This document shows, one piece after another, positions 6,911 through 50,608 of a stretch of 64,000 bases of DNA. A program made the position numbers and the translations under genes. The DNA lies in NCBI GenBank assembly GCA_030615745.1, contig JAUWYR010000004.1, forward strand, positions 9,838 to 73,837, given 5' to 3'. Source of the DNA: Candidatus Zixiibacteriota bacterium (GTDB taxonomy: Bacteria; Zixibacteria; MSB-5A5; SM23-73-2). A model generated the notes under the pieces. The model was not told the DNA's origin. It worked only from the letters and a program-made list of their open reading frames with translations, and did not search any database. Within the stretch, counting starts at the first letter, position 1; every line of letters starts with the position of its first letter.

Positions 6911-8853
6911 AGATGGAAAACCTTTTAGATAAAATCAACTCACCTGCGGACTTAAAAAAGATCCCTTTAGAAAAACTTCCCCAATTAGCTGAAAAGATAA
7001 GGGGAAAAATCATATCAGTTGTTTCAAAAAACGGAGGACACCTGTCCTCGAATTTAGGTGCGGTTGAACTGACGCTTGCCCTGCATTATGTGTTTGACTC
7101 GCCCAAGGATAAAATCGTCTGGGATGTGGGGCACCAGTGTTACACTCATAAGCTTTTAACTGGAAGAAAAGAGAAATTTGAAACCATAAGAAAATACCTT
7201 GGACTTTCAGGATTTCCAAAAAAGGATGAATCAGAGCACGATGTTTTCGATGTTGGACATGCCTCTACATCCATCTCCTCCGCTCTTGGATTAGTCTGCG
7301 CAAGAGATTTAAAAGGGGAGGACTTTTCTGTAATTGCTGTTATCGGGGATGGAGCATTAAGTGGTGGATTGTCCTTTGAGGGACTTAACAATGCTGGAGC
7401 GCAGAAAAAAGACTTAATCGTGATCTTAAATGATAACTCCATGTTCATATCAAAGAACGTGGGGGCTATGGCTAAATATCTGACTGACCTTTTGACTGAT
7501 GAGAAGTATAACAAGCTCAAAGCAGAAGTTTGGGAGCTTGTGGGTAAGTTTAAACGAAGAGATAAGATCAGAGCTATGGTTCAGCAAGTTGAGGAGTCAG
7601 TGAAGGGTTTTTTAGTTCCCGGGATTATATTTGAGAAATTAGGTTTCAGATATTTCGGACCTATAGATGGGCATCACCTTCCTCAATTGATCAAGACATT
7701 ATCCCATCTCAAGACTTTAAAAGGACCGATATTTCTTCATGTTCTGACTAAAAAAGGGAAGGGATATAAATATGCTGAGGAGGATGCCCCCCGTTTTCAT
7801 GGTATAGGCTCTTTTGACAAGGTAACTGGAAATTCCAACTCTGAGAAAGGAAGAAAGGCTTTCACCGATGTGTTCTCAGAAGCGATGGTGGAGATAGGAG
7901 AAAAAGATGAGAAAGTTGTTGCGATAACTGCTGCTATGTCTTTAGGCACCGGACTTTACTCTTTTGCCCAGAAGTTCCCACAAAGATTTTTCGATGTTGG
8001 AATAGCAGAACAGCATGGCGCCGCATTCTCTGCTGGCTTAGCTCGTCAAGGCTTAAAGCCTGTTTTTGCGGTCTATTCAACATTTTTGCAAAGGGCTTTT
8101 GATCAGGTTATTCATGATATCGCCTTGCAAAATCTTCCGGTGACTTTAGCAATAGATAGAGCAGGAATAGTTGGTGAGGATGGACCCACTCATCACGGCT
8201 TTCTTGATTTATCATATCTTCGTGGAATTCCCAATTTTGTGATTGCCTCCCCCAAAGATGGAAAGGAGCTAAAGGATTTACTTTACACCGCAGTCAACTG
8301 GAAAAAATCTCCTTTTGCATTGAGGTATCCGAGATGTCCTGTTCCTGATCAACCTGAAAAAGTCGGTATCGATCAAGAGAAAAGTTTTGGAAAGATAGAG
8401 GTGGGGAGCTGGGAGGTTTTGAGAGAGGGGAATGATATTTTGATCTTAGCCACAGGCTCTGTGGTTATTCCTTCGGTTGAGGCTTCTTTTAAACTCACAA
8501 AAGATTATATTGATGCCACTGTGGTAAATTGCAGGTTTATAAAACCTCTGGATGAGACCCTTCTTTTTTCACTTTTAAAAAAGCATGAATTTGTTTTAAC
8601 AGTTGAGGAGAATTCGCTTCTGGGTGGATTTGGCTCTGCGATTTTGGAGTTTATCCAAAAAAACAGCTTAAATAATATCCATTTGAAAATGCTGGGAATT
8701 CCGGATAAATTCATCCAGCATGGTAAAAGGGGTCTCCTTTTAAAAGATCTGGGGCTTGACCCTGATGGGATTTTTAAAGCTGTAAAAGAATTGTTAAAGA
8801 CAAAAAGGGGGAAATTAAAGTTTCAGATCTCAAAACAAAACAAATTAAAATGA
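6907..8853 (+). CDS. dxs: 1-deoxy-D-xylulose-5-phosphate synthase
   Basis: TPP-binding GHxSSxLG...GDGxxxGG, transketolase-like domains; contains in-frame 16-mer repeat at 8365-8380. Confidence 0.9.
   Translation: MKMENLLDKINSPADLKKIPLEKLPQLAEKIRGKIISVVSKNGGHLSSNLGAVELTLALHYVFDSPKDKIVWDVGHQCYTHKLLTGRKEKFETIRKYLGLSGFPKKDESEHDVFDVGHASTSISSALGLVCARDLKGEDFSVIAVIGDGALSGGLSFEGLNNAGAQKKDLIVILNDNSMFISKNVGAMAKYLTDLLTDEKYNKLKAEVWELVGKFKRRDKIRAMVQQVEESVKGFLVPGIIFEKLGFRYFGPIDGHHLPQLIKTLSHLKTLKGPIFLHVLTKKGKGYKYAEEDAPRFHGIGSFDKVTGNSNSEKGRKAFTDVFSEAMVEIGEKDEKVVAITAAMSLGTGLYSFAQKFPQRFFDVGIAEQHGAAFSAGLARQGLKPVFAVYSTFLQRAFDQVIHDIALQNLPVTLAIDRAGIVGEDGPTHHGFLDLSYLRGIPNFVIASPKDGKELKDLLYTAVNWKKSPFALRYPRCPVPDQPEKVGIDQEKSFGKIEVGSWEVLREGNDILILATGSVVIPSVEASFKLTKDYIDATVVNCRFIKPLDETLLFSLLKKHEFVLTVEENSLLGGFGSAILEFIQKNSLNNIHLKMLGIPDKFIQHGKRGLLLKDLGLDPDGIFKAVKELLKTKRGKLKFQISKQNKLK
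8365..8380 (+). repeat. GGTATCGATCAAGAGA 16-mer (dispersed repeat, in-frame in dxs)
   Basis: identical 16-mer at 8979-8994 (in nadK) and 10564-10579 (intergenic). Confidence 0.55.
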
Positions 8854-9734
8854 AAAGCATAGGTATAATCGCTAATCCTAAAAAGCCGAAGGTAAAAAAG
8901 ATAATAGAACAGATGATTTTGTGGGCTGAAAAAAATAAAATCGACTGCTATCTTTCCGATGAGCTAAAAGATTTGGTCGGTATCGATCAAGAGATTGGAA
9001 AAAAAGAAAAACTCTTACCTTTATCTTCACTCCCTGATAAATCAGAGGTTTTAATATCTTTGGGCGGGGATGGAACTATGCTCAAAACTGCGAGAACAGC
9101 GGGAGAAAAGTGTAATCCAATACTTGGAATAAATCTTGGAAGCTTAGGATTTATCACCGAGACAACGACAAACGATCTTGAGAAGACCTTAAATCGTTTG
9201 TTAAAAAAGGAATTCCAACTCGAAAAAAGAATGGTTTTGAAGGCGAAAATCGATTTGATGGACCAGCCATATGTTTTCGCTTTAAATGATGTAGTTTTGG
9301 ACAAAGGAGGTGTTGCCAGATTAATTCAGATGCACCTTTACGACAAGGATGAGTTCGTCTGTTCATATTCTGCTGATGGATTAATAATCTCCACGCCCAC
9401 CGGTTCAACCGCATATTCTTTAGCTTCAGGTGGACCGATAATAAATCCCAAAATAAACGCAATTATTGTTGCACCGATCTGCCCCCATACCCTTGCCTCC
9501 AGGCCAATCATCTTTTCAGAAAAAGGTAATTTGAAAATTGTTGTTGAATGCGACCAGAGAGATGCTCTGCTCACCATAGATGGGCAGATCGCCAAAACAT
9601 TAAAGTCTGGAACCTCGGTTTTAGTAAGCAAAGCAGAGCACACTGTTAATCTTATAAAATTTCCAGAATCTTCCTTTTACTCTGTTTTAAGAAAGAAGCT
9701 CCACTGGGGTGCAAGACCGAGGACAGAGGAGTAA
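8850..9734 (+). CDS. nadK: NAD+ kinase
   Basis: [34 protein letters not shown] motifs. Confidence 0.9.
   Translation: [294 protein letters not shown]
8979..8994 (+). repeat. GGTATCGATCAAGAGA 16-mer (in-frame in nadK)
   Basis: exact copy of 8365-8380. Confidence 0.55.
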
Positions 9735-10451: not shown

Positions 10452-10563
10452 AAGTCAAAGGTAAATCTTTTAGCTGATAATTTTTTTCAATAACAACAAG
10501 GATAATAATCTCTGAAGCTGAAAAAAAGTTTTTAAAAATTTTTTCAAACGAAACTTTATTCTC

Positions 10564-10588
10564 GGTATCGATCAAGAGATAAGATTTT
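10564..10588 (+). repeat. GGTATCGATCAAGAGATAAGATTTT dispersed repeat copy (intergenic)
   Basis: 16-mer identical to 8365/8979; 3' part ATCAAGAGATAAGATTT identical to 37844-37860. Confidence 0.55.
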
Positions 10589-18474: not shown

Positions 18475-20223
18475 ATCACCATACTTCCCCAAGATTTGGT
18501 TAACAAAATCGCTGCTGGTGAGGTGGTGGAGCGTCCGGCATCTGTTGTCAAGGAGCTGGTTGAGAATTCGATCGATGCTAAGGCTAAAAGTATTAAGGTG
18601 AAAATAAGATTCGGCGGGGTGAAATTAATAGAAGTTACAGATGATGGGGAAGGGATGAATCCTGAGGATGCGGAGCTTTCTTTAAAAAGACATGCGACAA
18701 GCAAGATAAAAGAAAAAGACGACCTTTATAATATAAAAACCTTAGGTTTCAGAGGGGAAGCTCTACCATCCATTGCCTCTGTTTGCTTTTTGGAACTTTT
18801 AACAAGACAAAAAGATGCACTTTCAGGAACTTTTCTAAGCTTAGAAGCAGGTATGATAAAACAAAAAAAAGAGATCGGCGCGCCTTGTGGAACATCTGTA
18901 ACTGTAAAAGAGCTTTTTTATAATACCCCTGCAAGGCTTAAGTTTTTAAAATCCAAACTCACTGAAACCAAACATATAATCGACCTTATACAGAATTATG
19001 CCTTAGCATATCCATCTCTATTATTTGAGCTCGAATCTGACCAGAGAACTCTTCTGAATTTACCAGCTTCAATTTTAAAACAGAGAATAGCTGACATCTG
19101 GGGAAATGATCTGAAATCAAAATTGGTAGAGATGGAAAAAGAAAGGTCCGACCCTGAGATTTTCGGATTTTTAGGAAAGCCTGAACTCACAAGGTCTAAT
19201 CGTTCTGAAATACGCATTTTCGTTAACAGAAGACCTGTGGTCTCAAGGGTCTTAAATCATGCTATACAATCGGGATATAGAGACCTTCTTCCACAGGGGA
19301 AATTTCCCTTTGCTTTTGCCTTTTTCGAGATAGACCCGGAAAAGATCGATGTGAACGTTCATCCAACAAAAAGGGAGATCAAATTCTCAAATGAACATCA
19401 AATCTACAATCTGCTATATTTGAAAGTGAAAAAGTCACTTAAGAGTTTTCAGACTATCCCTTCATACAATCTTTCATCTGAAAAATTGGTATCTGAAAAG
19501 TCCGAAAAAGCTAAAGTTGGAGAAAAAATAATTGATTATAGCACAAAAATGCAAAAACCCGACTTTATTCAGGAAAAGATAATTGATAAAATCTATCCTG
19601 CTGAAAAAAGGAAAGAAATTGAGCCAGAAGAAAAAACAACTTTTCAGAAAATTTGGCAAATCTTTGATCAATATATATTGGTCCAGAACGAAGATGAGTT
19701 ATGGATTATCGACCAGCACGCAGCACATGAGAGGATACTTTATGAAGAAATAAGTGAGAATATAGGCAAAAGTGGTCTATTATCACAAAAGCTGCTTTTT
19801 CCAGAGACACTTGAGCTCTCTCCAAAAGAGTTTTTGATCTACCGGGAAAATTCCGATATTTTACTAAAGTTAGGATTTGAGGTGGAGCTTTTCGGTAAGA
19901 ACAGCCTTTTAATTTCTGGGGTTCCATCTCTTTTAAAAAACCGGTCTGAAAAAAACTTTTTCTGTGAGCTTTTATCTGAGCTGGATGAAAATTTAAAAAA
20001 AGAAGGGGACAGGATAAAATCGGTTGCTAAAGCTTTTGCCTGTAAATCAGCGATAAAATCAGGCCTGAGGCTTTCTTATGAGGAGATAAAAACACTTTAC
20101 CAGAGTCTTTTATCAACAAAAAATCCCTTCAGTTGTCCTCATGGCAGACCAACCATTATAAAAATATCACTTGAAGAGCTCGATAAAAAGTTTATGCGAA
20201 GCATTCTTCGAAAAAGAACCTGA
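18463..20223 (+). CDS. mutL: DNA mismatch repair protein MutL
   Basis: GHKL ATPase N-term (AAGEVVERPASVVKELVENSIDA), GFRGEALPSIASV, C-terminal dimerisation domain. Confidence 0.92.
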   Translation: MKNKITILPQDLVNKIAAGEVVERPASVVKELVENSIDAKAKSIKVKIRFGGVKLIEVTDDGEGMNPEDAELSLKRHATSKIKEKDDLYNIKTLGFRGEALPSIASVCFLELLTRQKDALSGTFLSLEAGMIKQKKEIGAPCGTSVTVKELFYNTPARLKFLKSKLTETKHIIDLIQNYALAYPSLLFELESDQRTLLNLPASILKQRIADIWGNDLKSKLVEMEKERSDPEIFGFLGKPELTRSNRSEIRIFVNRRPVVSRVLNHAIQSGYRDLLPQGKFPFAFAFFEIDPEKIDVNVHPTKREIKFSNEHQIYNLLYLKVKKSLKSFQTIPSYNLSSEKLVSEKSEKAKVGEKIIDYSTKMQKPDFIQEKIIDKIYPAEKRKEIEPEEKTTFQKIWQIFDQYILVQNEDELWIIDQHAAHERILYEEISENIGKSGLLSQKLLFPETLELSPKEFLIYRENSDILLKLGFEVELFGKNSLLISGVPSLLKNRSEKNFFCELLSELDENLKKEGDRIKSVAKAFACKSAIKSGLRLSYEEIKTLYQSLLSTKNPFSCPHGRPTIIKISLEELDKKFMRSILRKRT

Positions 20224-25827: not shown

Positions 25828-27573
25828 ATGAAATGGTCTGAAACCTACATTCCGACTTTAAGAGAGTTTCCAGCTGAGGCTGAGATCATCTCACATAAGC
25901 TTCTGATCAAGGCTGGGTATATCAGAAAATTAACCTCCGGGGTGTATAACTATCTTCCACTTATGCAATCAGTCCTTTTAAAAATCACAAACATTGTCAG
26001 AGAGGAGATGAACAAATCCGGTGCCCAGGAGATTTTAATGCCGGTTTTGCATCCAGCTGAGCTCTGGCAGAAATCTGGAAGATGGGAGACCGTTGGTAAA
26101 GAACTGATGAGAATGAGGGATAGACATCAGAGGGATCTGGTCTTAGGAGGAACTCATGAGGAAGTTGTAACAAATTTGATAAAGGGAGAGATACGCTCCT
26201 ACCGTCAACTCCCTGTAAATTTATATCAGATTCAAACTAAATTCAGAGATGAGATAAGACCGAGGTTCGGCTTGATGAGAGGAAGGGAATTTCTGATGAA
26301 GGATGCCTATACCTTTGATGCGAATGAGAAAAGCTTCAATATAAGTTATCAGAAGATGGTAGATGCCTACTTTAAGATTTTCAAAAGATGCGGTTTGGAA
26401 ACCAAGATGGTTGAATCGGACACTGGAGCAATGGGAGGAAAAGCCGCTCATGAATTTATGGTGATAGTTGATACCGAAGGAGGCGAAAACATCATCTTTT
26501 ATTGTGACAGGTGCGACTACTCAGCAAATATTGACAAAGCGAGCTCTTTTGATTTGAAAGAGATAAAATCCGAAGGATTCACAGAAAAAGAAACTTTCAA
26601 AAAAATGGAGAAAGTCCATACTCCAGATAAAAAGACGATCGAGGAGGTAACTTTATTTTTAAATCAGCCACCGGAGAAACTTGTTAAAACTTTAATATAT
26701 AGAGCGGATGGAAATTTAGTTGCCGCATTGATAAGGGGAGACAAGGAGATAAATGAGGTGAAATTGAAAAATGCGCTCGGATGTATCCAGTTGGAGATGG
26801 CTGACTCCGAATCAATCAAAAAATTAACGAAAGCAGAAGTTGGATTCTCAGGTCCTGTGGGTCTGAAAGGTGTAAAAATGATAGTGGATGAGCAGATACC
26901 AAACCTTTTCAACTTCGTTACCGGAGCAAATCAAAATGATTACCACCTTGTAAACGTCAATTCAGAAAGGGATTTTAAAATCGACCAGGTAGCTGATATA
27001 AAAACCGCAAAGGAGGGCGAGGGTTGTCCAAAATGTAAAAAAGGTAGACTTAAAACTGATAGGGGAATTGAGGTTGGGAATACATTCATGCTCGGAACAA
27101 AATATAGCCAGTCCCTGGGAGCCACTTTTATAGATAAAGATGGAAAAGAGAAACCATTTATTATGGGCTCCTATGGTGTGGGGATAACTCGAACAGCTCA
27201 GGCTGCTGTGGAAAAATATCACGACGAAAAGGGGATAATCTGGCCAGTTTCAATTGCTCCTCTGCATATAAATATTCTTCCAGTGAATATCCAGGACCAA
27301 ACACAAAAAAATGTTGCCTTCGATATCTATCAAAGGATGAAAGAAAATAAAATGGAGGTTCTAATAGATGATAGGGATGAAAGGGCAGGGGTTAAGTTCA
27401 ACGATTCTGATCTGATCGGTCTACCCCTGAGGATAACAGTAGGAGAAAAATATCTTAAAAAGAAAAAAGTAGAGCTTACACTAAGAGGAAAAAACGAAAC
27501 TTTATTTTGCCCAAAAGAGGAGGTTTTAGAAAAGAGCAAAAAGATTTTAGAAAAACTAAAGGCTGTGTTTTAA
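25828..27573 (+). CDS. proS: prolyl-tRNA synthetase (bacterial type with editing domain)
   Basis: class II aaRS motifs, N-term MKWSETYIPTLREFPAEAEIISHKLLIKAGYIRKL. Confidence 0.92.
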   Translation: MKWSETYIPTLREFPAEAEIISHKLLIKAGYIRKLTSGVYNYLPLMQSVLLKITNIVREEMNKSGAQEILMPVLHPAELWQKSGRWETVGKELMRMRDRHQRDLVLGGTHEEVVTNLIKGEIRSYRQLPVNLYQIQTKFRDEIRPRFGLMRGREFLMKDAYTFDANEKSFNISYQKMVDAYFKIFKRCGLETKMVESDTGAMGGKAAHEFMVIVDTEGGENIIFYCDRCDYSANIDKASSFDLKEIKSEGFTEKETFKKMEKVHTPDKKTIEEVTLFLNQPPEKLVKTLIYRADGNLVAALIRGDKEINEVKLKNALGCIQLEMADSESIKKLTKAEVGFSGPVGLKGVKMIVDEQIPNLFNFVTGANQNDYHLVNVNSERDFKIDQVADIKTAKEGEGCPKCKKGRLKTDRGIEVGNTFMLGTKYSQSLGATFIDKDGKEKPFIMGSYGVGITRTAQAAVEKYHDEKGIIWPVSIAPLHINILPVNIQDQTQKNVAFDIYQRMKENKMEVLIDDRDERAGVKFNDSDLIGLPLRITVGEKYLKKKKVELTLRGKNETLFCPKEEVLEKSKKILEKLKAVF

Positions 27574-32381: not shown

Positions 32382-33432
32382 AGAAATTCTTAAAAAAATC
32401 GAGCAAAGCAAAAAGATACTTATAACATCACACACAGATCCAGATGGAGATTCTTTCTGTTCACAGCTTGCTTTAGCTAATTTTTTGGATAGTCTTGGCA
32501 AGACCTATGAAATTTTTAACCAGGGAGAAATCTCGAGCAAATATCTTTTTTTAGATGAGAAAAGAAGAATAAAAAACAAATCTCTTGATGCATACGCAAA
32601 AACAGTTCAAAATCTTTTATCTTCTCCTAAAGATTATGATTTAGTTATATTCATTGAGTGCTCTAATCTGGATCGAGTTGGGTGGGTTAAAAATTTGATA
32701 CCAGAGGATAGTTTTTTGATAAACATAGACCATCACCGGGATAACACCTTTTTCGGCAGTATAAATTATGTTGACCCAAAAGCTTCTGCTACCGGTGAGA
32801 TGATCTATGATATTATGAAAACCTTTGGATTTTCTTTTGATAAAAAAACTGCTGAGTTAATCTATGTAGCTATAATGACCGATACAGGAAGATTCAAATA
32901 CTCCAATACCACTCCCAAATCTCTGAGGGTATGTGCTGATTTGTTAGGATATGGAGTGGACATTCGCTTTTTAACAGAAAAGATCTATTTCAATTTTTCT
33001 GAACCTGCTTTGAGGCTTTTAGGAACTACTTTGGAAAACTTAGAGCTTTTCGCAGGTAATAAAATATCTTTTTTGACCATTACTTATCCTATGCTGGAAA
33101 AGTTTAAAGTCCCACATCAGGATATTGATGGGTTTGTTGAATTTTCGTTATCTTTAGAAGATAGTAAAGTTGGAGCACTTTTTTTGGAGACAAAAAAGGG
33201 GTTCGCTCAAGTGAGCTTGAGGTCTTGTGATTTTATGGATGTTTGCCAAATAGCTAAAAGCTTTGGTGGAGGAGGTCACAAAAACGCATCAGGTTTTTTA
33301 TCTGAGGGAAAAATCGATGTGGTTAAAAGAAAAGTTTTAGATTCCCTTTTAAAAAAGCTTAAGGAGAAATCCTCAAGCTTCTCTAAAAAAAAGATGTCAT
33401 ACAAAATCGAAAATCGAAAAGAAAAAAGATGA
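32353..33432 (+). CDS. nrnA: DHH/DHHA1 phosphoesterase, bifunctional oligoribonuclease/pAp phosphatase NrnA
   Basis: HTDPDGDS, DHH (IDHH), DHHA1 GGGGHKNASG; start may be a few codons downstream (overlaps rbfA). Confidence 0.8.
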   Translation: MRKGKRLETKEILKKIEQSKKILITSHTDPDGDSFCSQLALANFLDSLGKTYEIFNQGEISSKYLFLDEKRRIKNKSLDAYAKTVQNLLSSPKDYDLVIFIECSNLDRVGWVKNLIPEDSFLINIDHHRDNTFFGSINYVDPKASATGEMIYDIMKTFGFSFDKKTAELIYVAIMTDTGRFKYSNTTPKSLRVCADLLGYGVDIRFLTEKIYFNFSEPALRLLGTTLENLELFAGNKISFLTITYPMLEKFKVPHQDIDGFVEFSLSLEDSKVGALFLETKKGFAQVSLRSCDFMDVCQIAKSFGGGGHKNASGFLSEGKIDVVKRKVLDSLLKKLKEKSSSFSKKKMSYKIENRKEKR

Positions 33433-34448
33433 CTCAGAATTTAGCTAAAAAGACAAATGCTTTTTCCTTACGTAACTCTACGGGTCTTTTTAATGGAAAA
33501 AAAATTCTTGATGGTCTTTTGATAGTAAACAAAAAAAGGGGTCCCACCTCTTTTGATGTCGTCCAAAAGTTGCGTAATATACTAAATTACAAAAGGATAG
33601 GACATACAGGGACACTCGACCCCTTTGCCTCAGGTGTATTGGTTTGTTGTCTTGGCAAGGGAACAAAAATTGTCCAGTTTATAACTTTTTGGGAAAAAGA
33701 ATATATCGCAAAGATTAAGTTAGGTGAACAGACCGATACATACGACTCTCAGGGAAAGATTGTGAAAAAATTCGAAGAATGCTTCGCAAATGAGGGATTT
33801 GTGCTCGAAGAAAATAAAATACAAAGTGTGATAGATTCTTTTAAAGGTGAAATTTGGCAAACTCCTCCTTTGTATTCAGCAATAAAATATAAGGGAAAAA
33901 AACTGTACCAATTTGCAAGAGAGGGAAAAGAGGTTAAAATTAAAAAAAGAAAAGTAAAAATTGAAAATATTGAGATTTTAAAGATAAAGCTCCCCTTTGT
34001 TTGGATAAAAGTAAGGTGTTCTAAAGGAACCTATATCAGGAGCTTAGGTTTTGATATTGGTAAAAAGTTAGGTTGCGGAGCATATCTAATTTCTCTATGT
34101 CGAACCAAGGTGGGTCCATTTGAGCTAAAAGATTCTTTCACTCTCGATGCAATAAGAAAAATAAAAGATGAGGGTAAATTGAACAAAATCGTTGTCTCTA
34201 TGGAAAAAGCACTCGAAAATCTCCCATCTCTTGTGGTCTCAGATGAGAACAAATTCAAAATAAAGCATGGTCAAGACCTTAAAGTAAAGGATATAAAATC
34301 TGTGAAAAAAGATTTCTCAAAAAAAGATAGGGTGGTTTTAAAGGATGGCTCTGGGAAAATCTTGGCAATAGGGGAAAGTCTGGTCTCCTCTGAAGAGATC
34401 TCAGATGAACAAAAAGTAATTTTTAGATACATGAGGGTAGTTGTTTGA
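33429..34448 (+). CDS. truB: tRNA pseudouridine(55) synthase TruB with PUA domain
   Basis: GHTGTLDPFASGVL catalytic-Asp motif; N-terminal ~25 aa extension, true start possibly later. Confidence 0.85.
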   Translation: MTQNLAKKTNAFSLRNSTGLFNGKKILDGLLIVNKKRGPTSFDVVQKLRNILNYKRIGHTGTLDPFASGVLVCCLGKGTKIVQFITFWEKEYIAKIKLGEQTDTYDSQGKIVKKFEECFANEGFVLEENKIQSVIDSFKGEIWQTPPLYSAIKYKGKKLYQFAREGKEVKIKKRKVKIENIEILKIKLPFVWIKVRCSKGTYIRSLGFDIGKKLGCGAYLISLCRTKVGPFELKDSFTLDAIRKIKDEGKLNKIVVSMEKALENLPSLVVSDENKFKIKHGQDLKVKDIKSVKKDFSKKDRVVLKDGSGKILAIGESLVSSEEISDEQKVIFRYMRVVV

Positions 34449-35506
34449 TGGAGGTCATTTTCGACATAACAAAAATCGATTCATCTTTTTTCAAAAGACC
34501 GGTGGTAACTTTAGGGACATTCGATGGAGTCCATCTCGGGCATCAGTTAATAATAAGAAAAGTGGTTGAAAAGGCAAAAAAGAAAAAGAAAAAAAGCGTT
34601 CTGGTCACCTACGAGCCACATCCTCAATGGATTATTGACCCAGAAACTGCCCCTTTTATTCTTACAACCCTTGATGAAAAATTATTGTTTCTCGAAAAAT
34701 TAGGGCTGGACCTGACCATAGTGGTTAATTTTGATAAAAACTTTTCAAAAACCTCAGCTGAAGAATTCATAAAAAAGATTTTGGTGGAAAAATTAAATAT
34801 AGGTGAATTGGTGGTTGGATATGACCACGCATTTGGAAAAAACAGAAAGGGACGCCTGCCACTTTTGAAAAAGAAAGCTAAGGAGTATCGATTTGGATTG
34901 GAGGTTATCTCTCCTATTAAAAATGACGATTTACCCATAAAAAGCACAAAAATAAGATTTGAACTCAAATCAGGGGACTTTCAAAAAGCTGTTAAGATGT
35001 TGGGTCACGCTTATCCGATCTTGGGTAAAAAAGTGGAGGGCAAAGGCAGAGGATATAAGCTCGGCTTTCCCACCATAAATCTAAAGGTTCCTGAAAGAAA
35101 GCTTCTCCCTCAAGACGGGGTCTTTTCAGCAGAGGTGAAAATTAAAGAGGAGTTTTATCGGGGAATGGTTTATTACGGGAAAAGTCCTACTTTTGAATAC
35201 AAATCAAAATCTTTGGAAGTGAATATATTCGACTTCGAACCAGAAGAAGATGTTGAAAAAGTCTTCCTTTCTCTTTTTGACTGGATTAGACCTGATATCA
35301 AATTCGATAATTTAGATGCATTAAAAAGAAAGCTTAAAGAGGATGAGAAAAAAGTCAAAAGATTACTTATGCGAAGCCTTAGGAGTCCTTCGGACATTTC
35401 GTCAAGATGTCGTCAAGACTCTTCGAGCTTCGCACATACGAAAAGAAAAAATTTAAAAGGAGGTTTTTTTGCCAATAGAGAAACAAAGAAGACAAAAGCT
35501 TGTTGA
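34445..35506 (+). CDS. ribF: bifunctional riboflavin kinase / FAD synthetase
   Basis: FAD-synthetase [11 protein letters not shown], riboflavin kinase domain; unusual ~45-aa C-terminal tail encoded by a dispersed-repeat copy (35375-35450) and overlapping rpsO. Confidence 0.8.
35375..35450 (+). repeat. degenerate copy of GACTCTTCGAGC / GTCAAGA short-repeat family
   Basis: CTTCGGACATTTCGTCAAGATGTCGTCAAGACTCTTCGAGC related to 37882-37917 and 39310-39350. Confidence 0.4.
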
Positions 35507-37881: not shown

Positions 37882-37917
37882 TCCGAAGGATTTCCGAAGG
37901 ACTCTTCGAGCATAGAA
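37882..37917 (+). repeat. 36-nt dispersed repeat TCCGAAGGATTTCCGAAGGACTCTTCGAGCATAGAA (intergenic copy)
   Basis: 36/36 identical copy inside murI at 48107-48142. Confidence 0.75.
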
Positions 37918-39214: not shown

Positions 39215-40233
39215 CTTCTATTCAGAAAATGAAACCTATTTTATTTCCCCTTTTTTTTCTTTTAATTTTAAGTTTATCACTTTTTTTTATCTGGAGAATT
39301 GTGTATGCGCGTATGCGTCAAGAGACCGAAGGTCAAGAGACATCAAGAGAAAGGTTTAAATCCCAACAATTTTCATCCGAAAATGCGTATGCATCAAGAG
39401 ATAAAAATAATATTTTACTCTATCATAAAATAGAAGATAAGTGGGAGTGGGGAATCACCCGACAAAGGATAAGCCAATTTGAAAAGCAGATGAAATTTCT
39501 TTATAAGCAGGGTTATAAATTGATGAGGTTGGACCTGTCCGGTCAGGAAAAAAATTTCACTAATGACTTTGATTCTGAGAACAAAAAGATTTTTTTGACC
39601 TTTGATGATGGTTATGAATCTGTCTATACTCATGCTTTTCCTATTCTTGAGAAGTTTGGTTTTTCTGCAACTGTTTTTCTTATCACAGGATGGGTAGGAA
39701 AAAAGAATTTGTGGGATATAAACTGGGGGAAAAAGTTTAATCACCTCTCTTGGTCACAGATAGAAGAGCTTAAAAAATTCGGATTTAATTTTGGTTCTCA
39801 TACTGTGAATCATCCTGATCTAACTAAACTTAATGGAAAAGAAGTTGAATATGAGCTTTTGAATTCAAAAAATATGATAGAAGATAGGTTAGGGGAGAGG
39901 GTTGAGTTTTTATCCTATCCATTTGGAAAATATAATAGATCAGTTCAAAGAATTGCTGAAGATATTGGTTATAAAAACGCGTTCACTATTTGCTCTGGAC
40001 CAAAAAAATTTTCCGACCCATATGCTTTAGGACGATTAGGGATCTATCTTTTTGATTCGAGCTTGACTTTACATATAAAATTGAACCAAACACCAATTTT
40101 TTGGATAGAGGATATGAAAGGAAGGATAATTAACCAATTTGCCAATGGGACAACTCTTTTCAAGTCAAAACCAAAATACGATTTTTGCTTAAAAAGTGAA
40201 AAGCCTAAAAGTATCTTCGTAAAAAAGGTATGA
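39199..40233 (+). CDS. polysaccharide deacetylase (NodB homology) with N-terminal TM anchor
   Basis: TFDDGY, HTVNHPDL motifs; aa ~30-70 (ARMRQETEGQETSRERF...NAYASRDKN) encoded by CAAGAGA-family repeats 39301-39402; start may be ATG 39229. Confidence 0.75.
   Translation: MGTFLTSIQKMKPILFPLFFLLILSLSLFFIWRIVYARMRQETEGQETSRERFKSQQFSSENAYASRDKNNILLYHKIEDKWEWGITRQRISQFEKQMKFLYKQGYKLMRLDLSGQEKNFTNDFDSENKKIFLTFDDGYESVYTHAFPILEKFGFSATVFLITGWVGKKNLWDINWGKKFNHLSWSQIEELKKFGFNFGSHTVNHPDLTKLNGKEVEYELLNSKNMIEDRLGERVEFLSYPFGKYNRSVQRIAEDIGYKNAFTICSGPKKFSDPYALGRLGIYLFDSSLTLHIKLNQTPIFWIEDMKGRIINQFANGTTLFKSKPKYDFCLKSEKPKSIFVKKV
39301..39402 (+). repeat. cluster of CAAGAGA-family short repeats inside deacetylase ORF
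   Basis: GTGTATGCGCGTATGCGTCAAGAGACCGAAGGTCAAGAGACATCAAGAGA ... TGCGTATGCATCAAGAGAT; matches 397-418, 46009-46041(rc), 46199-46218. Confidence 0.6.
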
Positions 40234-44890: not shown

Positions 44891-44911
44891 TAAGATTATG
44901 TGGGTTATTGA

Positions 44912-45148
44912 CTTAAACTAAAACTTTAAGTCATAATAATATATTATCTGGAGTGCAACAACTTGTTGTTGCAACTCTATGCGAAAACAAGTTTTCGCAC
45001 TACCTAAGAGAAAAGCAGAGCAAGGGTGCTCTGCGCTATGAGGTTTTGTGTTTTTTGAACAGACAGGAATGTCTGTTCTACCTTCGGTTATTTTTTAACA
45101 TCGGGCATGTTCGAAGAATGCTTCGCAAAGCCCGACGCTACATTTAAA
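44912..45148 (+). repeat. nested repeat, long form (CTTAAACTAAAACTTTAAGTC ... CCCGACGCTACATTTAAA) with ~180-nt highly structured interior
   Basis: termini identical to short form 45233-45289; interior carries perfect hairpins TGCAACAACTTGTTGTTGCA, GCGAAAACAAGTTTTCGC, GCAGAGCAAGGGTGCTCTGC, GAACAGACAGGAATGTCTGTTC. Confidence 0.55.
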
Positions 45149-45545: not shown

Positions 45546-46016
45546 ATGGAAAAAAAAGAAGAGATAAAAATAGTAGCGACTAACAGGAAGGCTCATCACG
45601 ACTATACTATAGTTGAGACCTATGAGGCTGGGTTGGAACTAAAGGGGAGCGAGGTTAAATCTTTAAGGGAAGGTAAAGTCTCTTTGAGGGACTCCTTTGC
45701 CAGGATAGTTGATGAACAGCTACATTTATTAAATATGCACATAAGCTCCTATGAGAAGGCATCTAAGTTTGGACATGATCCAAAAAGAACAAAAAAATTG
45801 TTGATGCATAAAAGGGAAATAAAAAGACTTATGGGCAAAACTTTTGAAAAGGGATACACCTTAGTCCCTTTAAAAATCTACTTTAAAGGAAGTTTTGCCA
45901 AGGTGGAATTAGCCCTAGTCACTGGTAAAAGAAAATATGATAAAAGGAGAGCCCTGGCTGAAAAAGAGGCTAAAAGAAAAATAGAAAGAGCCTTTAAAGA
46001 GAGACAAATCTCTTGA
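45546..46016 (+). CDS. smpB: SsrA-binding protein
   Basis: IVATNRKAHHDYTIVETYEAGLELKGSEVKSLR...; start placed at MEKKEE (ORF-track start 45510 extends into non-coding repeat). Confidence 0.88.
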   Translation: MEKKEEIKIVATNRKAHHDYTIVETYEAGLELKGSEVKSLREGKVSLRDSFARIVDEQLHLLNMHISSYEKASKFGHDPKRTKKLLMHKREIKRLMGKTFEKGYTLVPLKIYFKGSFAKVELALVTGKRKYDKRRALAEKEAKRKIERAFKERQIS

Positions 46017-46041
46017 TGTCTCTTGACCTTCGGCATACGCA
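46009..46041 (-). repeat. CAAGAGA-family repeat (rc orientation) spanning smpB stop / amidase upstream
   Basis: TCTCTTGATGTCTCTTGACCTTCGGCATACGCA = rc of TGCGTATGCCGAAGGTCAAGAGACATCAAGAGA (cf. 39316-39350). Confidence 0.55.
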
Positions 46042-46047: not shown

Positions 46048-47514
46048 ATGGCAAAAAAAGTAGCTTTTTTAACAATCTTTTTAGTGTCGTCGTTTGCCTT
46101 TACATCTTTATCCCAAAGCATTTATGAACTTTCAAACTTACCTAAAGTAAAAATAGATAAAGTTGATTATGTTTGTTTAGATGAAGTTGTCCGGGTTTTG
46201 CGTATGCATCAAGAGATAGGTGGTAAGATTTATCAGGATGAAAAAGAGGGAAAAGCGATATGGTATTATAAGGGTCAAAGATTGGAATTTACACCCTTTT
46301 CCCCTTACGTTTTAATTGATAACTCAATCTATGATCTTTTGTTCGAGGTAAAATTAAAGAAAGGGGAAATCTTTGTTCCTCAAAAAAATTTCTTTTCCCT
46401 TTTAAAAGAGTTAAAAAAGCAAAGCAAAAAATTCAAGGAAAACTTATCTCTTGATGCATACGCATTTTCAAAACCCTCTTATCTTGAGTATAACATCACA
46501 GATATTTTTGCATCTAAAAAGCTCAATGGAATTTTAATCGAGATATTTATTTCCTATCCCATAAATTATGAGGTTTTTAAAAGTGAGAATAACTGTATCA
46601 ACATTTTCTTCTATGAGGGGAAAATCGACACCGGTTATTTTAATTTCAAAGAAATTCCAAGTATAATAAAAAAGATAACGGCTTATCAATACGGAAACTC
46701 AGTCCAGGTCTCCTTATGGACGAAAAAGTCCTTTCATACACTATCCCACAATCTGGAATCTTTTCCTTTTCGTATTCAAATCTCCTTGGAGGATACAACC
46801 GAGATTGCTAAAAGTGCACAAGATGATCTAATCGACGTGGTGGTCATTGACCCAGGTCATGGTGGGGTCGATTTTGGATTTTTTGGTCAAAGGAGTCTTT
46901 GGGAAAAAGATATCACTTTAGATATAGCCTTAAGGTTAAAAAAGCTTTTAGAGAAAGAAACTGATTTAAAAGTTGTCCTTACAAGAGATTATGATGTTTT
47001 TATTCCTCTTAAAAAAAGAGCAAGAATAGCAAATAAAGAGGGTGGAGACCTGTTAATAAGCATTCACTGTGAATTTTCTGAGGACGAAAATGAATCTGGA
47101 TTTGAAATCTTCTTTTTCGGAGAGTCTCAAAAAGATAAAGAAACGACTTTAACTTTTAAAGAGGATTTAGAAAAAACCAATGAAATTTTTTCTGATTCGA
47201 TTTTTATTCTCCCTGACACCACCCAATACCTGTTCTTTGAACAGTCAAAAAATTTAGCTTTTATAGTTTGTGAGGAGATGGAAAAAAAACTTAAAATGTT
47301 TTCAAAGGGAATTTTTCAAGAAAAGTTTTTAGTTTTGAAAAAAGCCTATATGCTTGGAATTTTAGTTAATTGTGGATTTATCTCCAATCCAGATGAGGAA
47401 AAGCTTTTGGCACAAAGTCCTTTTAGAGAAAAAATTGCAGAGGCTCTGTTTTTTGGAATAATGAGGTTTAAAATTGAGGGTGAGCACGAAAAAAGCTATG
47501 AAGCTAAAAGATGA
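46048..47514 (+). CDS. N-acetylmuramoyl-L-alanine amidase (AmiC-like: AMIN domain + amidase_3)
   Basis: signal peptide, amidase_3 core VVIDPGHGG...DLLISIHCE; contains two in-frame CAAGAGA-family repeats (46199-46218, 46446-46464). Confidence 0.8.
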   Translation: MAKKVAFLTIFLVSSFAFTSLSQSIYELSNLPKVKIDKVDYVCLDEVVRVLRMHQEIGGKIYQDEKEGKAIWYYKGQRLEFTPFSPYVLIDNSIYDLLFEVKLKKGEIFVPQKNFFSLLKELKKQSKKFKENLSLDAYAFSKPSYLEYNITDIFASKKLNGILIEIFISYPINYEVFKSENNCINIFFYEGKIDTGYFNFKEIPSIIKKITAYQYGNSVQVSLWTKKSFHTLSHNLESFPFRIQISLEDTTEIAKSAQDDLIDVVVIDPGHGGVDFGFFGQRSLWEKDITLDIALRLKKLLEKETDLKVVLTRDYDVFIPLKKRARIANKEGGDLLISIHCEFSEDENESGFEIFFFGESQKDKETTLTFKEDLEKTNEIFSDSIFILPDTTQYLFFEQSKNLAFIVCEEMEKKLKMFSKGIFQEKFLVLKKAYMLGILVNCGFISNPDEEKLLAQSPFREKIAEALFFGIMRFKIEGEHEKSYEAKR

Positions 47515-48349
47515 AAAAAAAATAGGGATATTCGACTCAGGTGTGGGTGGTTTAACTGTTGCTCGCGAGATTCTTAAAATCCTCCCCTTTGAACAGATAA
47601 TCTATTTTGGCGATACTGCGCGTTGCCCATATGGTCCGAGATCGAAAAAAATTGTCAGGGAATTTTCATTGCAGAATGTGAATTTTTTATTATCTCAAAA
47701 TGTTAAATTCATCGTAGTGGCTTGTAATACTTCCTCAGCTTTGGCTTTGGATTTTTTAAAAAAAAGGTTTGAAATTCCCATGATGGGAGTTATCGAGCCA
47801 GGAGCAAAAGGAGCAGTCGAGGCAACTAAAAATAAAAAGGTAGGGGTGATCGGAACTTTAGGAACAATTTCATCTGGTTCTTATGTTAAAGCTATTCATA
47901 AAATGGACAAAAAGATTATAATTTATCCTCTGTCCTGCCCTCTTTTTGTCAGCTTGACTGAGGAGGGTTTTATTAACAAAAAAGCGACCTATCTTATCGC
48001 TGAGGAATACTTGAAGCCTTTGAAGAAAAAAAGAATCGATACTTTGATCTTAGGATGCACCCACTATCCTTTGTTAAAAGGGGTTATAAGAAATGCGATG
48101 AAAAAATCCGAAGGATTTCCGAAGGACTCTTCGAGCATAGAAAATGTAACGTTGATCGACTCAGCTGAAAAGACAGCTTTGGATGTCAAAAGGTTTTTAT
48201 TAGAAAAAGACCTTTTAAGAAAATCTGATAAAGAACCTTCTCATAAATTTTTTGTCTCAGACCAGCCGGATAAATTCAAAAAACTCGGACAAAGATTTTT
48301 AGGGAAAAAGATAAAAAGGGTTGAATTAGTGGACATAAACAAATACTAA
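47498..48349 (+). CDS. murI: glutamate racemase
   Basis: IGIFDSGVGGLTV, CNTSS and GCTHYPLL cysteine motifs; carries 36-nt repeat insertion (KSEGFPKDSSSIE) at 48107-48142. Confidence 0.88.
   Translation: MKLKDEKKIGIFDSGVGGLTVAREILKILPFEQIIYFGDTARCPYGPRSKKIVREFSLQNVNFLLSQNVKFIVVACNTSSALALDFLKKRFEIPMMGVIEPGAKGAVEATKNKKVGVIGTLGTISSGSYVKAIHKMDKKIIIYPLSCPLFVSLTEEGFINKKATYLIAEEYLKPLKKKRIDTLILGCTHYPLLKGVIRNAMKKSEGFPKDSSSIENVTLIDSAEKTALDVKRFLLEKDLLRKSDKEPSHKFFVSDQPDKFKKLGQRFLGKKIKRVELVDINKY
48107..48142 (+). repeat. 36-nt dispersed repeat, in-frame inside murI
   Basis: identical to 37882-37917. Confidence 0.75.
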
Positions 48350-49615: not shown

Positions 49616-49693
49616 GGTGGGTGTAGCTCAGTTGGTTAGAGCACCAGGTTGTGGCCCTGGTGGTCGCGGGTTCAAGTCCCGTCATCCACCCCA
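49616..49693 (+). tRNA. tRNA-His (anticodon GTG) with encoded G-1 and CCA
   Basis: G-1 + acceptor GTGGGTG/CATCCAC, anticodon arm CCAGG-TTGTGGC-CCTGG, T-arm GCGGG-TTCAAGT-CCCGT, discriminator C, CCA. Confidence 0.85.
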
Positions 49694-50420: not shown

Positions 50421-50608
50421 CAAAAGCGCTAAAGTCATGATAACAGATTTATTTTAAGAGAATGGGATTATTTTATTTCGGTCACTTTTTTTACTTGACA
50501 AAAATTGTGGTTGTATTATATTTTAATAAAGAGAGCAAGTCATTTTAACAATAAACTTTATAAGAATTGAATGGCGCAAACCTTGAAAAAACAAGGAGGC
50601 GATTTTAA

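What the first reader, a model, noticed from the sequence alone, without database searches (positions are those of the whole stretch)
48107..48142. A 36-nt dispersed repeat is inserted in-frame inside glutamate racemase (murI) and is identical to an intergenic copy
TCCGAAGGATTTCCGAAGGACTCTTCGAGCATAGAA occurs 36/36 at 37882-37917 (between pnp and the M16 peptidase) and inside murI, where it encodes KSEGFPKDSSSIE. This falls between the conserved GCTHYPLL...NAM and VTLIDSAE blocks, where racemases normally have only 2-4 residues. A related degenerate copy (…GACTCTTCGAGC…) sits in the extended ribF tail at 35375-35450. A mobile mini-repeat that lands in-frame in an essential enzyme without inactivating it is unusual and informative about the element's insertion constraints.
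Basis: partly seen in the sequence, partly recalled or inferred. Interest (0 to 1): 0.6.

Follow-up and report, generated by a model that had tools for sequence, protein, structure and literature searches.

The report
Tiny mobile repeat inside glutamate racemase
A 36-base repeat has been copied in-frame into the cell-wall enzyme gene murI of an uncultured Zixibacteria-like bacterium, and it is one of many 18-base-unit mini-repeats that this lineage inserts into genes about as readily as between them.

Summary
The 36-mer is exact at 37882-37917 and 48107-48142 (0 expected by chance). It adds exactly 12 residues to MurI that all solved MurI structures and 11 of 12 orthologues lack.

A strain about 95% identical carries the empty site. 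A third exact copy sits in the same frame in an unrelated membrane-protein gene on another contig. It is therefore a dispersed insertion, not a local duplication or an ancestral loop.

The 36-mer is composite. An 18-nt hairpin unit (TCCGAAGGACTCTTCGAG) is nested inside a decayed sibling 18-nt unit (TCCGAAGGATT^CATAGAA). The same nesting, with solo and "empty" forms, occurs in a distant MAG labelled Bacteroidota.

The window holds at least four such families. Nine of their 12 exact copies lie inside genes. Every intragenic indel traced to them is a multiple of three. Several are present or absent between close relatives.

In MurI the insert is a low-confidence coil, both catalytic-cysteine motifs are intact, and dN/dS is 0.2-0.27.

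The mobilising machinery was not found. I infer a hairpin-recognising enzyme acting in trans.

The closest analogues are cyanobacterial small dispersed repeats and Rickettsia palindromic elements. I rate it a new variant of a known kind.

The parts
48107..48142 (+). 36-nt composite repeat (D) inserted in-frame in murI. It encodes S204-E215 (SEGFPKDSSSIE).
   Evidence: Exact match. 12-aa gap against PDB MurI and against orthologues. Absent from L001 and L061.
48118..48135 (+). Inner 18-nt hairpin unit (E), TCCGAAGGACTCTTCGAG, with stem CGAAG/CTTCG and loop GACT. It is nested in the outer unit TCCGAAGGATT^CATAGAA. The boundary is ambiguous by 1 nt.
   Evidence: Short and long forms at two orthologous loci. 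Filled and empty paralogues in the JANONI MAG. CGAAGN4CTTCG gives 5 matches against 0.07 expected.
47498..48349 (+). murI (glutamate racemase) CDS, 283 aa. Both catalytic Cys motifs (ACNTSS, GCTHYP) are intact.
   Evidence: AF2 model pLDDT 81. TM about 0.9 to PDB MurI. dN/dS 0.20-0.27.
37882..37917 (+). Identical 36-nt composite in the pnp/M16-peptidase intergenic region, ending 1 nt before the M16 ATG. The inner unit is at 37893-37910.
   Evidence: The sister species L060 has the short form TCCGAAGGATTTACGGA at this place.
35369..35446 (+). 78-nt composite inserted in-frame (26 codons) in the ribF C-terminal tail. It contains a diverged nested pair, TCGTCAAGATG[TCGTCAAGACTCTTCGAG]CTTCGCA, at 35399-35434. 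It is bounded by the inverted repeats ATGCGAAGC / GCTTCGCA.
   Evidence: Absent from L060. DNA fold z = -2.3.
33771..33788 (+). 18-nt unit B, TTCGAAGAATGCTTCGCA (same stem CGAAG/CTTCG, loop AATG), in-frame in truB.
   Evidence: An 18-nt insertion relative to L060. Fold z = -2.4.
45110..45127 (+). Unit B copy, intergenic, upstream of smpB.
   Evidence: An 18-nt segment absent from L061. Exact repeat.
20195..20212 (-). Unit B copy in the last codons of mutL.
39384..39402 (+). Unit A, TGCGTATGCATCAAGAGAT (net 18 nt), in the deacetylase gene (reads AYASRD).
39300..39350 (+). Expanded array of A-type words. Relative to L060, 33 nt are nested into a simple unit A (GCGTATG^CATCAAGAGA).
46199..46217 (+). 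Unit A copy in-frame in the amidase gene.
   Evidence: An 18-nt segment absent from L061.
46446..46464 (-). Unit A copy in-frame in the amidase gene (reads SLDAYA).
32580..32598 (-). Unit A copy in-frame in the DHH-family gene (reads SLDAYA). Net +6 aa relative to L060.
46008..46041 (+). 34-nt composite: unit A with 15-16 nt nested at its word junction. It sits at the smpB 3' end and supplies a new stop codon.
   Evidence: Absent from L001 and L061.
8363..8380 (+). 18-nt unit C, TCGGTATCGATCAAGAGA, in dxs, in the inter-domain loop.
   Evidence: Exact repeat in 3 copies. About +6 aa relative to PDB Dxs.
8977..8994 (+). Unit C copy in nadK.
   Evidence: The alignment to PDB NadK was inconclusive.
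10562..10579 (+). Unit C copy, intergenic.
26569..26586 (+). Possible solo outer unit, TCCGAAGGATTCACAGAA, in proS (reads SEGFTE).
   Evidence: Matches the predicted 'empty' outer unit. Net +6 aa relative to PDB ProRS in a variable linker. Suggestive only.

Best explanation
WHAT IT IS. The 36-mer is a discrete, very small insertion element with no coding function of its own.

It is a composite. The inner part is an 18-nt hairpin unit (TCCGAAGGACTCTTCGAG; 5-bp stem CGAAG/CTTCG, loop GACT). It is nested at the loop/3'-stem junction of a decayed sibling 18-nt unit (TCCGAAGGATT^CATAGAA).

It belongs to a population of mini-repeats built from 18-nt units in an uncultured Zixibacteria-related lineage. 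In the window these are units A, B and C and the composite D.

WHAT IS SHOWN.
- The composite was copied as a unit, with identical ends, into at least three loci: the pnp/M16 spacer, murI, and a membrane-protein gene.
- In murI it landed exactly between the codons for K203 and N216.
- The allele without the insert still exists in the population.

WHY IT PERSISTS (inferred). The insert is 3n long, has no stop codon in that frame, is hydrophilic, and sits in a disordered surface coil between helix 194-202 and strand 218-221. Selection removes frameshifting or disruptive copies. What is left are in-frame copies in loops, linkers and protein tails.

HOW IT MOVES (inferred, not shown). A defined unit is copied in without an evident target-site duplication, mostly next to A/T runs. 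The inner unit goes site-specifically into hairpins of its own kind (..ATG^CTTCGCA). Fixed ends and self-targeting point to a structure-specific enzyme acting in trans on single-stranded hairpin DNA, in the manner of HUH/RAYT enzymes. That enzyme would be encoded elsewhere in the genome.
For: Exact copies and chance.

Insertion in murI: 12-aa gap against PDB MurI and against orthologues. Clean 36-nt indel against L001 and L061, and present with 2 substitutions in L002. Independent assemblies L035 and L059 are 97% identical to the window, have no gaps, and carry both copies.

Third locus: L044 has the same frame and the same peptide. Homologues P0243-P0245 lack the segment.

Composite nature: the sister assembly GCA_975971765.1 has the short form at both orthologous loci. 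In the JANONI MAG, the solo unit TCCGAAGGATGCTTCGCA and the empty site GCATG^CTTCGCAT coexist with filled versions that carry exactly the 18-nt inner unit. A different hairpin is found inserted at the same point.

Family behaviour: every dispersed exact repeat of 18 nt or more in the window belongs to families A-D. Indels of 18, 18, 78, 33, 36, 34 and 18 nt against L060, L061 and L001 coincide with these units, and all intragenic ones are 3n. Nine of 12 exact copies lie in CDS, against a coding density of 87%.

Structure: CGAAGN4CTTCG gives 5 matches against 0.07 expected. Unit B and the 78-mer fold better than shuffles (z about -2.3 to -2.4). Units A and C differ by two compensatory stem swaps (TGC..GCA versus TCG..CGA) around a conserved GTAT loop (sequence).

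Tolerance in MurI: pLDDT is below 50 only at residues 204-214 within that region, which is coil. TM is about 0.9 to solved MurI. dN/dS is 0.20-0.27 with or without the insert.
Against: - No transposase, RAYT or other candidate enzyme was found in the 64-kb window or in the flanks of copies elsewhere.
- The 36-mer as a whole and unit A do not fold better than shuffles (z -0.6 and -0.5).
- Only three insertion sites of the composite are known, so any target preference (A/T run followed by WWTG) is anecdotal.
- In the ribF 78-mer, both 5' half-words changed in parallel (TCGTCAAG). That fits local 11-nt duplication or conversion better than simple nesting.
- The short forms in the sister species could be two precise losses rather than ancestral states.
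- The window's murI is slightly closer to the insert-free L001 than to the insert-bearing L002 (dS 0.066 versus 0.10). Loss or recombination cannot be excluded.
- L044 is assigned to the same lineage by inference only.
Confidence: 0.6

Rival explanations
1. Templated copying without a dedicated enzyme. Hairpin-prone words stall replication or repair. The nascent strand switches to an ectopic copy and back, pasting short tracts into new places. Local slippage then duplicates 8-11-nt words.
For: - Junctions lie in A runs that give 1-2 nt of ambiguity.
- Tandem 10-11-nt word pairs are seen: TCCGAAGGATT/TCCGAAGGACT, TCGTCAAGATG/TCGTCAAGACT, GTCAAGAGAC/ATCAAGAGAT.
- Both half-words in the ribF 78-mer changed in parallel.
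- No enzyme was found.
Against: - The 36-mer has identical ends at three loci whose flanks share no homology with each other.
- The 18-nt units also have fixed ends at 3-6 loci each.
- The inner unit is nested at one exact position in hairpins of two distant lineages. A simple switch-and-return would convert the loop, not nest a full unit.
Confidence: 0.25
2. The repeat is a selected functional motif. It could be a binding site for a DNA or RNA-binding protein, or a useful peptide module (SEGFPKDSSSIE). It would then have been recruited at several places rather than spreading as selfish DNA.
For: - The same reading frame and peptide occur in MurI and in the L044 protein.
- One copy sits in the 5' leader of the M16 gene.
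- The core 19-mer is conserved across distant lineages.
Against: - The copy upstream of M16 is untranslated, with a TAG in the M16 frame.
- The two nucleotide changes in L002's copy are both non-synonymous (S to F twice).
- The host genes are unrelated, and the positions are loops, linkers and tails.
- Copies are present or absent between near-identical strains.
- Unit A is read in at least four different frames.
Confidence: 0.06
3. It is not an insertion. The 12 residues would be ancestral in this clade's MurI and were deleted precisely in L001 and other lineages. The intergenic identity would be secondary.
For: The window's murI is nearer to insert-free L001 than to insert-bearing L002 at synonymous sites.
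Against: - All 10 outgroup orthologues (59-74% identical) and all solved MurI structures lack the segment.
- The same 36 nt exist in a spacer and in an unrelated gene.
- L061, the more distant syntenic relative, lacks it and lacks nearly all the words.
Confidence: 0.03
4. It is an assembly or chimera artefact, or a single local duplication within this 64-kb stretch.
For: The two window copies are only 10 kb apart and on the same strand.
Against: - The murI copy is present in three independent assemblies from different samples (L002, L035 and the window). The spacer copy is present in L059.
- A third locus exists on another contig.
Confidence: 0.01

Closest known systems
Small dispersed repeats (SDR) of heterocyst-forming cyanobacteria (Elhai et al. 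2008, Genome Res 18:1484). Described here from my own knowledge. The paper is cited as 'small dispersed repeats... which might be mobile' in PMC2884548 and PMC3116915 but could not be read.
   Same: - Units well under 30 nt.
- Dispersed in many copies.
- Nested within one another and within other repeats.
- Found next to tandem heptamer-like arrays.
- Present or absent between close relatives.
- Also found within genes.
- No known mobilising enzyme.
   Different: - Different sequences and a different phylum (Zixibacteria-related, and a MAG labelled Bacteroidota).
- Units here are 18 nt, a multiple of three, against 21-27 nt as I recall.
- Gene interiors are used at nearly the background rate.
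- Homology to SDR families was not tested.
Rickettsia palindromic elements (RPE; Ogata et al. 2000, as summarised in PMC10969869).
   Same: Selfish palindromic repeats inserted in-frame into unrelated housekeeping genes. They add peptide segments that are compatible with the fold.
   Different: RPEs are about 100-150 bp and encode a conserved peptide of 30-50 aa. The units here are 18-36 nt (6-12 aa), modular and nested. The host is a free-living sediment lineage, not an obligate intracellular one.
REP/REPIN elements mobilised by RAYT (HUH Y1) transposases (PMC3116915; GTAG/CGTC-tagged REPs, PMC3733652).
   Same: - Short hairpin-forming repeats with conserved stems and variable loops.
- No target-site duplication.
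- They cluster and serve as targets for further insertions.
- The mobilising enzyme is presumed to act in trans.
   Different: - No GTAG or CGTC head on these units.
- About half the size of a REP.
- Not extragenic.
- No RAYT gene was seen.

The window does contain separate GTAG-headed GC-rich hairpins that look like true REPs.
MITEs (review PMC10969869).
   Same: Non-autonomous, multi-copy, and sometimes intragenic with in-frame read-through.
   Different: MITEs are roughly 50-500 bp and have terminal inverted repeats and target-site duplications. Neither the size nor a TSD is met here.
Translational-bypass inserts ('byps' of Magnusiomyces mitochondria; the T4 gene 60 gap). From my own knowledge; see bioRxiv 10.1101/2022.08.31.505936, listed.
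   Same: Short mobile inserts inside protein-coding genes that do not destroy the product.
   Different: Those inserts are skipped by the ribosome and need not be in-frame. Here every intragenic insert is 3n and stop-free in the frame used, so plain translation suffices.

Membership tests
Glutamate racemase (MurI, Pfam Asp_Glu_race) | Significant match to the family profile and to solved MurI sequences over the full length. | tested here: met
   PF01177, E = 8.8e-20. 3hfr, E = 1.3e-70 over residues 15-287.
Glutamate racemase (MurI, Pfam Asp_Glu_race) | Two catalytic cysteine motifs (..ACNT.. and ..GCTHYP..) and the two-domain fold. | tested here: met
   VVACNTSS and LGCTHYPLL are present and invariant in the alignment. 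The model has TM about 0.9 to PDB MurI.
REP / REPIN (RAYT-mobilised) | Imperfect palindrome of 20-40 nt that forms a stable hairpin. | tested here: inconclusive
   The inner unit and unit B have a 5-bp stem (unit B z = -2.4). The whole 36-mer (z = -0.6) and unit A (z = -0.5) do not differ from shuffles.
REP / REPIN (RAYT-mobilised) | Conserved GTAG or CGTC tetranucleotide at one end. | tested here: not met
   None of units A-E or the 36-mer carries it (sequence). Other hairpins in the window do carry it.
REP / REPIN (RAYT-mobilised) | Extragenic location. | tested here: not met
   Nine of 12 exact copies lie inside CDS.
REP / REPIN (RAYT-mobilised) | A cognate RAYT gene in the same genome. | not testable with these tools
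   Only 64 kb of the genome is available. Pfam found no Y1 transposase among 48 window ORFs.
MITE | Terminal inverted repeats, a target-site duplication, and a length of about 50-500 bp. | tested here: not met
   There is no duplication at the murI, truB, amidase or smpB junctions beyond 1-2 ambiguous A's. Units are 18-36 nt. Only the 78-mer has terminal inverted repeats.
Rickettsia palindromic elements | A palindromic element of about 100-150 bp that encodes a conserved peptide and is inserted in-frame. | tested here: not met
   In-frame insertion is met. Size is not (36 nt). No sequence relation was tested.
Cyanobacterial small dispersed repeats (SDR) | Dispersed unit shorter than about 30 nt with fixed ends. 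| tested here: met
   18-nt units with identical ends at 3-6 loci each.
Cyanobacterial small dispersed repeats (SDR) | Nested in other repeats, and present or absent between relatives. | tested here: met
   Nesting. Presence/absence polymorphism.
Cyanobacterial small dispersed repeats (SDR) | Sequence homology to SDR1-8 and a cyanobacterial host. | not tested
The host here is Zixibacteria-related, so at best this is an analogue, not a member.

The most novel reading that the evidence does not exclude
These are a distinct, previously undescribed class of 'codon-compatible' ultra-small mobile elements. The units are 18-nt hairpins, a multiple of three, and mostly free of stop codons. They home into the loops of their own kind and also into A/T-rich sites anywhere in the genome, gene interiors included.

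They are shared across FCB-group phyla and moved by an unknown hairpin-specific enzyme. Under this reading they act as a steady source of 6-12-residue loop insertions in housekeeping proteins.
Probability: 0.3. Interest if true: 0.8.

Novelty: new variant of a known kind. Interest (0 to 1): 0.6.

Why it matters
Very small repeats are usually treated as extragenic structural or regulatory DNA. Here there are direct filled-site and empty-site pairs showing that 18-36-nt units enter the interiors of conserved housekeeping genes (murI, truB, dxs, ribF, an amidase and others). They do so at close to the background rate and survive as extra loop residues.

This gives a concrete, testable system for three questions:
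- How do elements too small to carry any gene move?
- How does element length (3n, stop-free) evolve under selection by the host's coding density?
- How much protein loop variation in uncultured lineages comes from such insertions?

There are also practical consequences. These repeats break short-read assemblies (Logan contigs L001 and L002 end in them). They also create strain-specific indels in marker genes.

Tried and rejected
- Rfam, gathering threshold on the whole window and E-value mode on 35300-39450: only tRNAs and one chance snoRNA-like hit.
- The JANONI-type composite against PLSDB plasmids: no match.
- The 19-mer core in IMG/VR: 0 hits. The unit A 19-mer: 1 hit inside a phage ORF with no other words, taken as chance.
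- GC-rich hits of the 19-mer in genome and metagenome scans (Nonomuraea, Rhodococcus, Burkholderiales and others) are coding coincidences (peptide SEGLFE). They were set aside on the basis of their flanks.
- Search for a mobilising gene. Pfam on 48 window ORFs found no transposase, only a recombinase fragment at 49682-50302. ORFs next to copies in the JANONI MAG and in Ga0209516 contigs are housekeeping or toxin-antitoxin-like.
- 'Strings of GNA mini-hairpins' (GCGAAGC-type; PMC13037366) as the unifying feature. Nearest-neighbour folding of the 36-mer and of unit A is no better than shuffles. Only the 5-bp CGAAG/CTTCG stem is retained as a feature.
- NadK alignment to PDB, to test unit C as an insertion: the N-terminal region is too variable, so this was inconclusive.
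- Elhai et al. 2008 could not be read.
- The window's own genome is not in the searched collections. The best MurI hit is 94% identical, so no genome-wide census was possible.
Full report
**1. The observation**

The 36-mer TCCGAAGGATTTCCGAAGGACTCTTCGAGCATAGAA is present exactly at 37882-37917 and at 48107-48142. Both copies are on the + strand, and there are no other matches at up to 3 mismatches. None appeared in 100 dinucleotide-preserving shuffles.

Identity ends exactly at the 36-mer (flanks GGCTTT|..|TATG and AAAAAA|..|AATG). The first copy lies between the pnp stop (37855) and the M16-peptidase start (37919).

The second copy lies in murI (ATG 47498, stop 48349; Pfam Asp_Glu_race). It starts on a codon boundary and encodes S204-E215, SEGFPKDSSSIE.

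**2. It is an insertion in MurI**

Alignments to Listeria, B. anthracis and B. subtilis MurI each show one gap of exactly 12 residues here. The gap lies between the helix that follows GCTHYP and the strand VTLIDS.

I aligned the 12 closest database homologues:
- P0001 (94% identical) has the segment, with 3 amino-acid changes in and beside it.
- P0002 (96% over the aligned part) lacks exactly these 12 residues.
- All ten others (66-74%; the named ones are Zixibacteria) also lack them.

The DNA behind P0002 (L001, Logan SRR26549046) is about 94.5% identical to the window over 3 kb. It has a clean 36-nt gap with the empty site GATGAAAAAA^AATGTAACG. L002 (SRR30965933) has the insert with two C-to-T changes.

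Two JGI contigs (L035 and L059, from Ga0209978) are 97% identical to the window, without gaps. They carry the murI copy and the spacer copy. The feature is therefore real in independent assemblies and polymorphic among close strains.

**3. It is dispersed**

A third exact copy lies on contig Ga0114921_10021814 (L044). It sits inside a 237-aa membrane-protein ORF, in the same reading frame, and gives the same SEGFPKDSSSIE.

Homologues at 53-68% identity (P0243-P0245) lack the segment. This removes the 'local duplication' rival.

L044 is assigned to the window's lineage by inference, on three grounds:
- It carries the identical 36-mer.
- It has similar GC content and a similar word array.
- The sister assembly GCA_975971765.1 holds orthologues of both regions (L060 and L063).

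**4. The 36-mer is a composite of two 18-nt units**

At both orthologous loci the sister assembly has a short form:
- TCCGAAGGATTTACGGA upstream of M16 (L060).
- TCCGAAGGATTT|ATACAA (18 nt) in the membrane-protein gene (L063).

The window lineage has TCCGAAGGATT[TCCGAAGGACTCTTCGAG]CATAGAA at both. The boundary is ambiguous by 1 nt.

The 19-mer core TCCGAAGGACTCTTCGAGC occurs 13 times, on 12 contigs, in one GTDB genome. This is JANONI01, a MAG labelled Bacteroidota with about 40% GC. It also occurs in several low-GC metagenome contigs. In every case it sits between ..ATG and CTTCGC.

That MAG contains all of the following:
- Solo units TCCGAAGGATGCTTCGCA.
- 'Empty' sites GCGTATGCATG^CTTCGCAT.
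- Filled versions of both, carrying exactly the 18-nt inner unit. One of these, TCCGAAGGATG[TCCGAAGGACTCTTCGAG]CTTCGCA, is the 36-nt homologue of the window repeat.
- A different hairpin inserted at the same point.

So the inner unit behaves as an 18-nt element that lands at the loop/3'-stem junction of hairpins of its own kind (T-C-CGAAG-N4-CTTCG-N2). The outer part of the window's 36-mer is a decayed sibling, matching the solo unit at 14 of 18 positions.

**5. The wider population in the window**

Apart from two self-palindromes, every dispersed exact repeat of 18 nt or more belongs to four families:

| Family | Sequence | Copies |
|---|---|---|
| D | the 36-mer | 2 |
| A | TGCGTATGCATCAAGAGAT | 4 |
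| B | TTCGAAGAATGCTTCGCA | 3 |
| C | TCGGTATCGATCAAGAGA | 3 |

The noise floor is 16 nt or less.

Against the syntenic relative L060 (83.6% nt identity), most of the window-specific indels of 9 nt or more coincide with these words. They are 18 nt in the DHH gene, 18 nt in truB, 78 nt in the ribF tail, 19 nt in the pnp/M16 spacer, and 33 nt nested into a unit A in the deacetylase gene. The one internal exception is a 94-nt intergenic segment at 40584-40677.

Against L061 (76% identity), which has almost none of the words, the gaps fall at the unit B copy upstream of smpB, the 34-nt composite at the smpB end, both unit A copies in the amidase gene, and the murI 36-mer. L001 and L002 carry an 18-nt unit A in the amidase gene that the window lacks.

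All intragenic events are multiples of three. The 34-nt and 19-nt events lie at a gene end and in a spacer.

Nine of the 12 exact copies lie inside CDS, against a coding density of 87%. These elements are therefore hardly excluded from genes.

Within proteins they sit in linkers, tails or loops:
- The Dxs inter-domain loop, about +6 aa against PDB.
- The MutL and RibF tails.
- The SmpB end.
- The deacetylase linker after the membrane helix.
- The non-catalytic N-terminal part of the amidase.
- Inside the TruB_N and DHH domains.

**6. Structure of the elements**

CGAAG-N4-CTTCG occurs 5 times against 0.07 expected. It is the stem of both unit B and the inner unit. Unit B and the 78-mer fold better than shuffles (z about -2.4 and -2.3).

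The 36-mer as a whole (z -0.6) and unit A (z -0.5) do not. I do not claim that they do.

Units A and C differ by two compensatory swaps (TGC-GTAT-GCA versus TCG-GTAT-CGA) ahead of the shared ATCAAGAGA. This is suggestive but rests on two families only.

**7. Consequence for MurI**

The AlphaFold2 model has mean pLDDT 81 and pTM 0.83. It has helix 194-202, coil 203-217 and strand 218-221. pLDDT is below 50 at 204-214, which is the insert. The model matches solved glutamate racemases at TM about 0.9.

Both catalytic-cysteine motifs are intact and invariant. dN/dS is 0.27 (window against L002), 0.24 (window against L001) and 0.20 (L002 against L001). The neighbouring amidase gene gives 0.37-0.43. 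These figures rest on few substitutions.

The two changes inside L002's insert are both non-synonymous. I infer that the enzyme is functional and that the insert is a near-neutral loop. This has not been shown experimentally.

**8. Mechanism**

Shown:
- Discrete units with fixed ends.
- No target-site duplication beyond 1-2 ambiguous A's.
- Nesting at a defined position.
- Presence/absence polymorphism.
- Insertion mostly beside A/T runs. For the composite the sites are AAAAAA^AATG, GGCTTT^TATG and ATAATA^TTTG.

Inferred: a structure-specific enzyme acting in trans on single-stranded hairpin DNA, in the manner of HUH/RAYT enzymes, with selection then filtering for 3n, stop-free and loop-compatible copies.

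Not found: any such enzyme.

The main rival is enzyme-free template switching plus local slippage. It explains the tandem 10-11-nt word pairs and the parallel change of both half-words in the ribF 78-mer. It does not explain identical ends at unrelated sites, or site-specific nesting.

**9. Comparison with known systems and novelty**

These elements behave most like the cyanobacterial small dispersed repeats (Elhai et al. 2008; my own knowledge, cited in PMC3116915 and PMC2884548). They also resemble, on a smaller scale, the Rickettsia palindromic elements that insert in-frame into housekeeping genes (PMC10969869).

They fail the defining features of other families:
- REP/REPIN: no GTAG/CGTC head, and not extragenic.
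- MITEs: wrong size, and no target-site duplication.

I found no description of such repeats in Zixibacteria. I rate the finding a new variant of a known kind.

The most novel reading that remains open is an 18-nt, codon-compatible, self-homing class of element shared across FCB-group phyla.

**10. Limits**

- Only 64 kb of the genome is available, and the source genome is absent from the searched collections.
- Unit boundaries are ambiguous by 1-2 nt in A runs.
- The direction of the short/long difference in the sister species (two gains or two precise losses) is unresolved.
- Whether L001 lost the insert or never had it is unresolved.

Noticed in passing
window 2386-2440, 4538-4562, 18300-18395 (-), 25643-25697, 25748-25772: GTAG-headed GC-rich hairpins (TGTAGGGGCGGGG...CCCCGCC) that look like classical GTAG-tagged REP elements. 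Most (those near 2.4, 4.5 and 25.7 kb) are preceded by tandem arrays of 7-9-nt words: ..CGGAT/..CAGAT at 2293-2377 and 4410-4530, and TAGGTNA heptamers near 25600 and 25710. They suggest a RAYT-type system elsewhere in the genome.
   Followed up: partly
window 16089-18483: mutS and mutL are separated by an inserted cassette. It consists of a 23S-rRNA-intervening-sequence-family protein (16089-16472) and a KAP-family NTPase with pentapeptide repeats (16542-18287). The cassette is bounded by 80-nt direct repeats at 16452-16531 and 18404-18483 (93% identical).
   Followed up: partly
window 49617-55808: A serine-recombinase fragment (only the Zn-ribbon domain; 49682-50302, minus strand) abuts tRNA-His. 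It is followed by repeat-rich secreted proteins with CarboxypepD_reg, SBBP and dockerin domains. This looks like a decayed integration site of an island.
   Followed up: no
window 40584-40677: A 94-nt intergenic segment absent from both syntenic relatives (L060 and L061). It contains two hairpins (GGAGCC..GGCTCC and CAGAGGG..CCCTCTG). It belongs to none of the 18-nt families.
   Followed up: no
window 44469-45509: About 1 kb between leuS and smpB with no ORF of 80 aa or more and no Rfam match. It has many window-specific insertions relative to L061, including a unit B copy at 45110-45127.
   Followed up: no
window 37840-37881; L060 6352-6403: The window lacks 52 nt that L060 has at the pnp 3' end, including half of a terminator-like hairpin. 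The window's pnp instead ends in the word ATCAAGAGATAA.
   Followed up: no
window 26569-26586: TCCGAAGGATTCACAGAA in proS (reads SEGFTE) matches the predicted 'empty' outer unit of the 36-mer. The window's ProRS has a net 6 extra residues here relative to PDB ProRS, in a variable linker.
   Followed up: partly
L044 about 1035-1060; L063 about 3800-3825; L064 about 860-885: A hairpin of the same kind (TCCGAAGGATCTTCGGA) is conserved at the 3' end of the bactofilin gene in three relatives. It may be an old, fixed member of the family or a functional terminator or regulator.
   Followed up: no
L060 7757-7951 / 8012-8722: In the sister assembly the deacetylase gene is split by a stop codon just after the region that carries the unit A word. 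It is either a pseudogene or a sequencing error.
   Followed up: no
L001 and L002 contig ends (window about 46008-46034): Both Logan contigs end inside the 34-nt and unit A repeats. These mini-repeats are therefore long and frequent enough to break short-read assemblies of this lineage.
   Followed up: no
L007 3990-4360 (Chitinophagaceae MAG): An intergenic region packed with ..ACGGAT.. word arrays and three GGACTCTTCGAGC-containing repeats. Similar word-array architecture therefore exists in a bona fide Bacteroidota genome.
   Followed up: no
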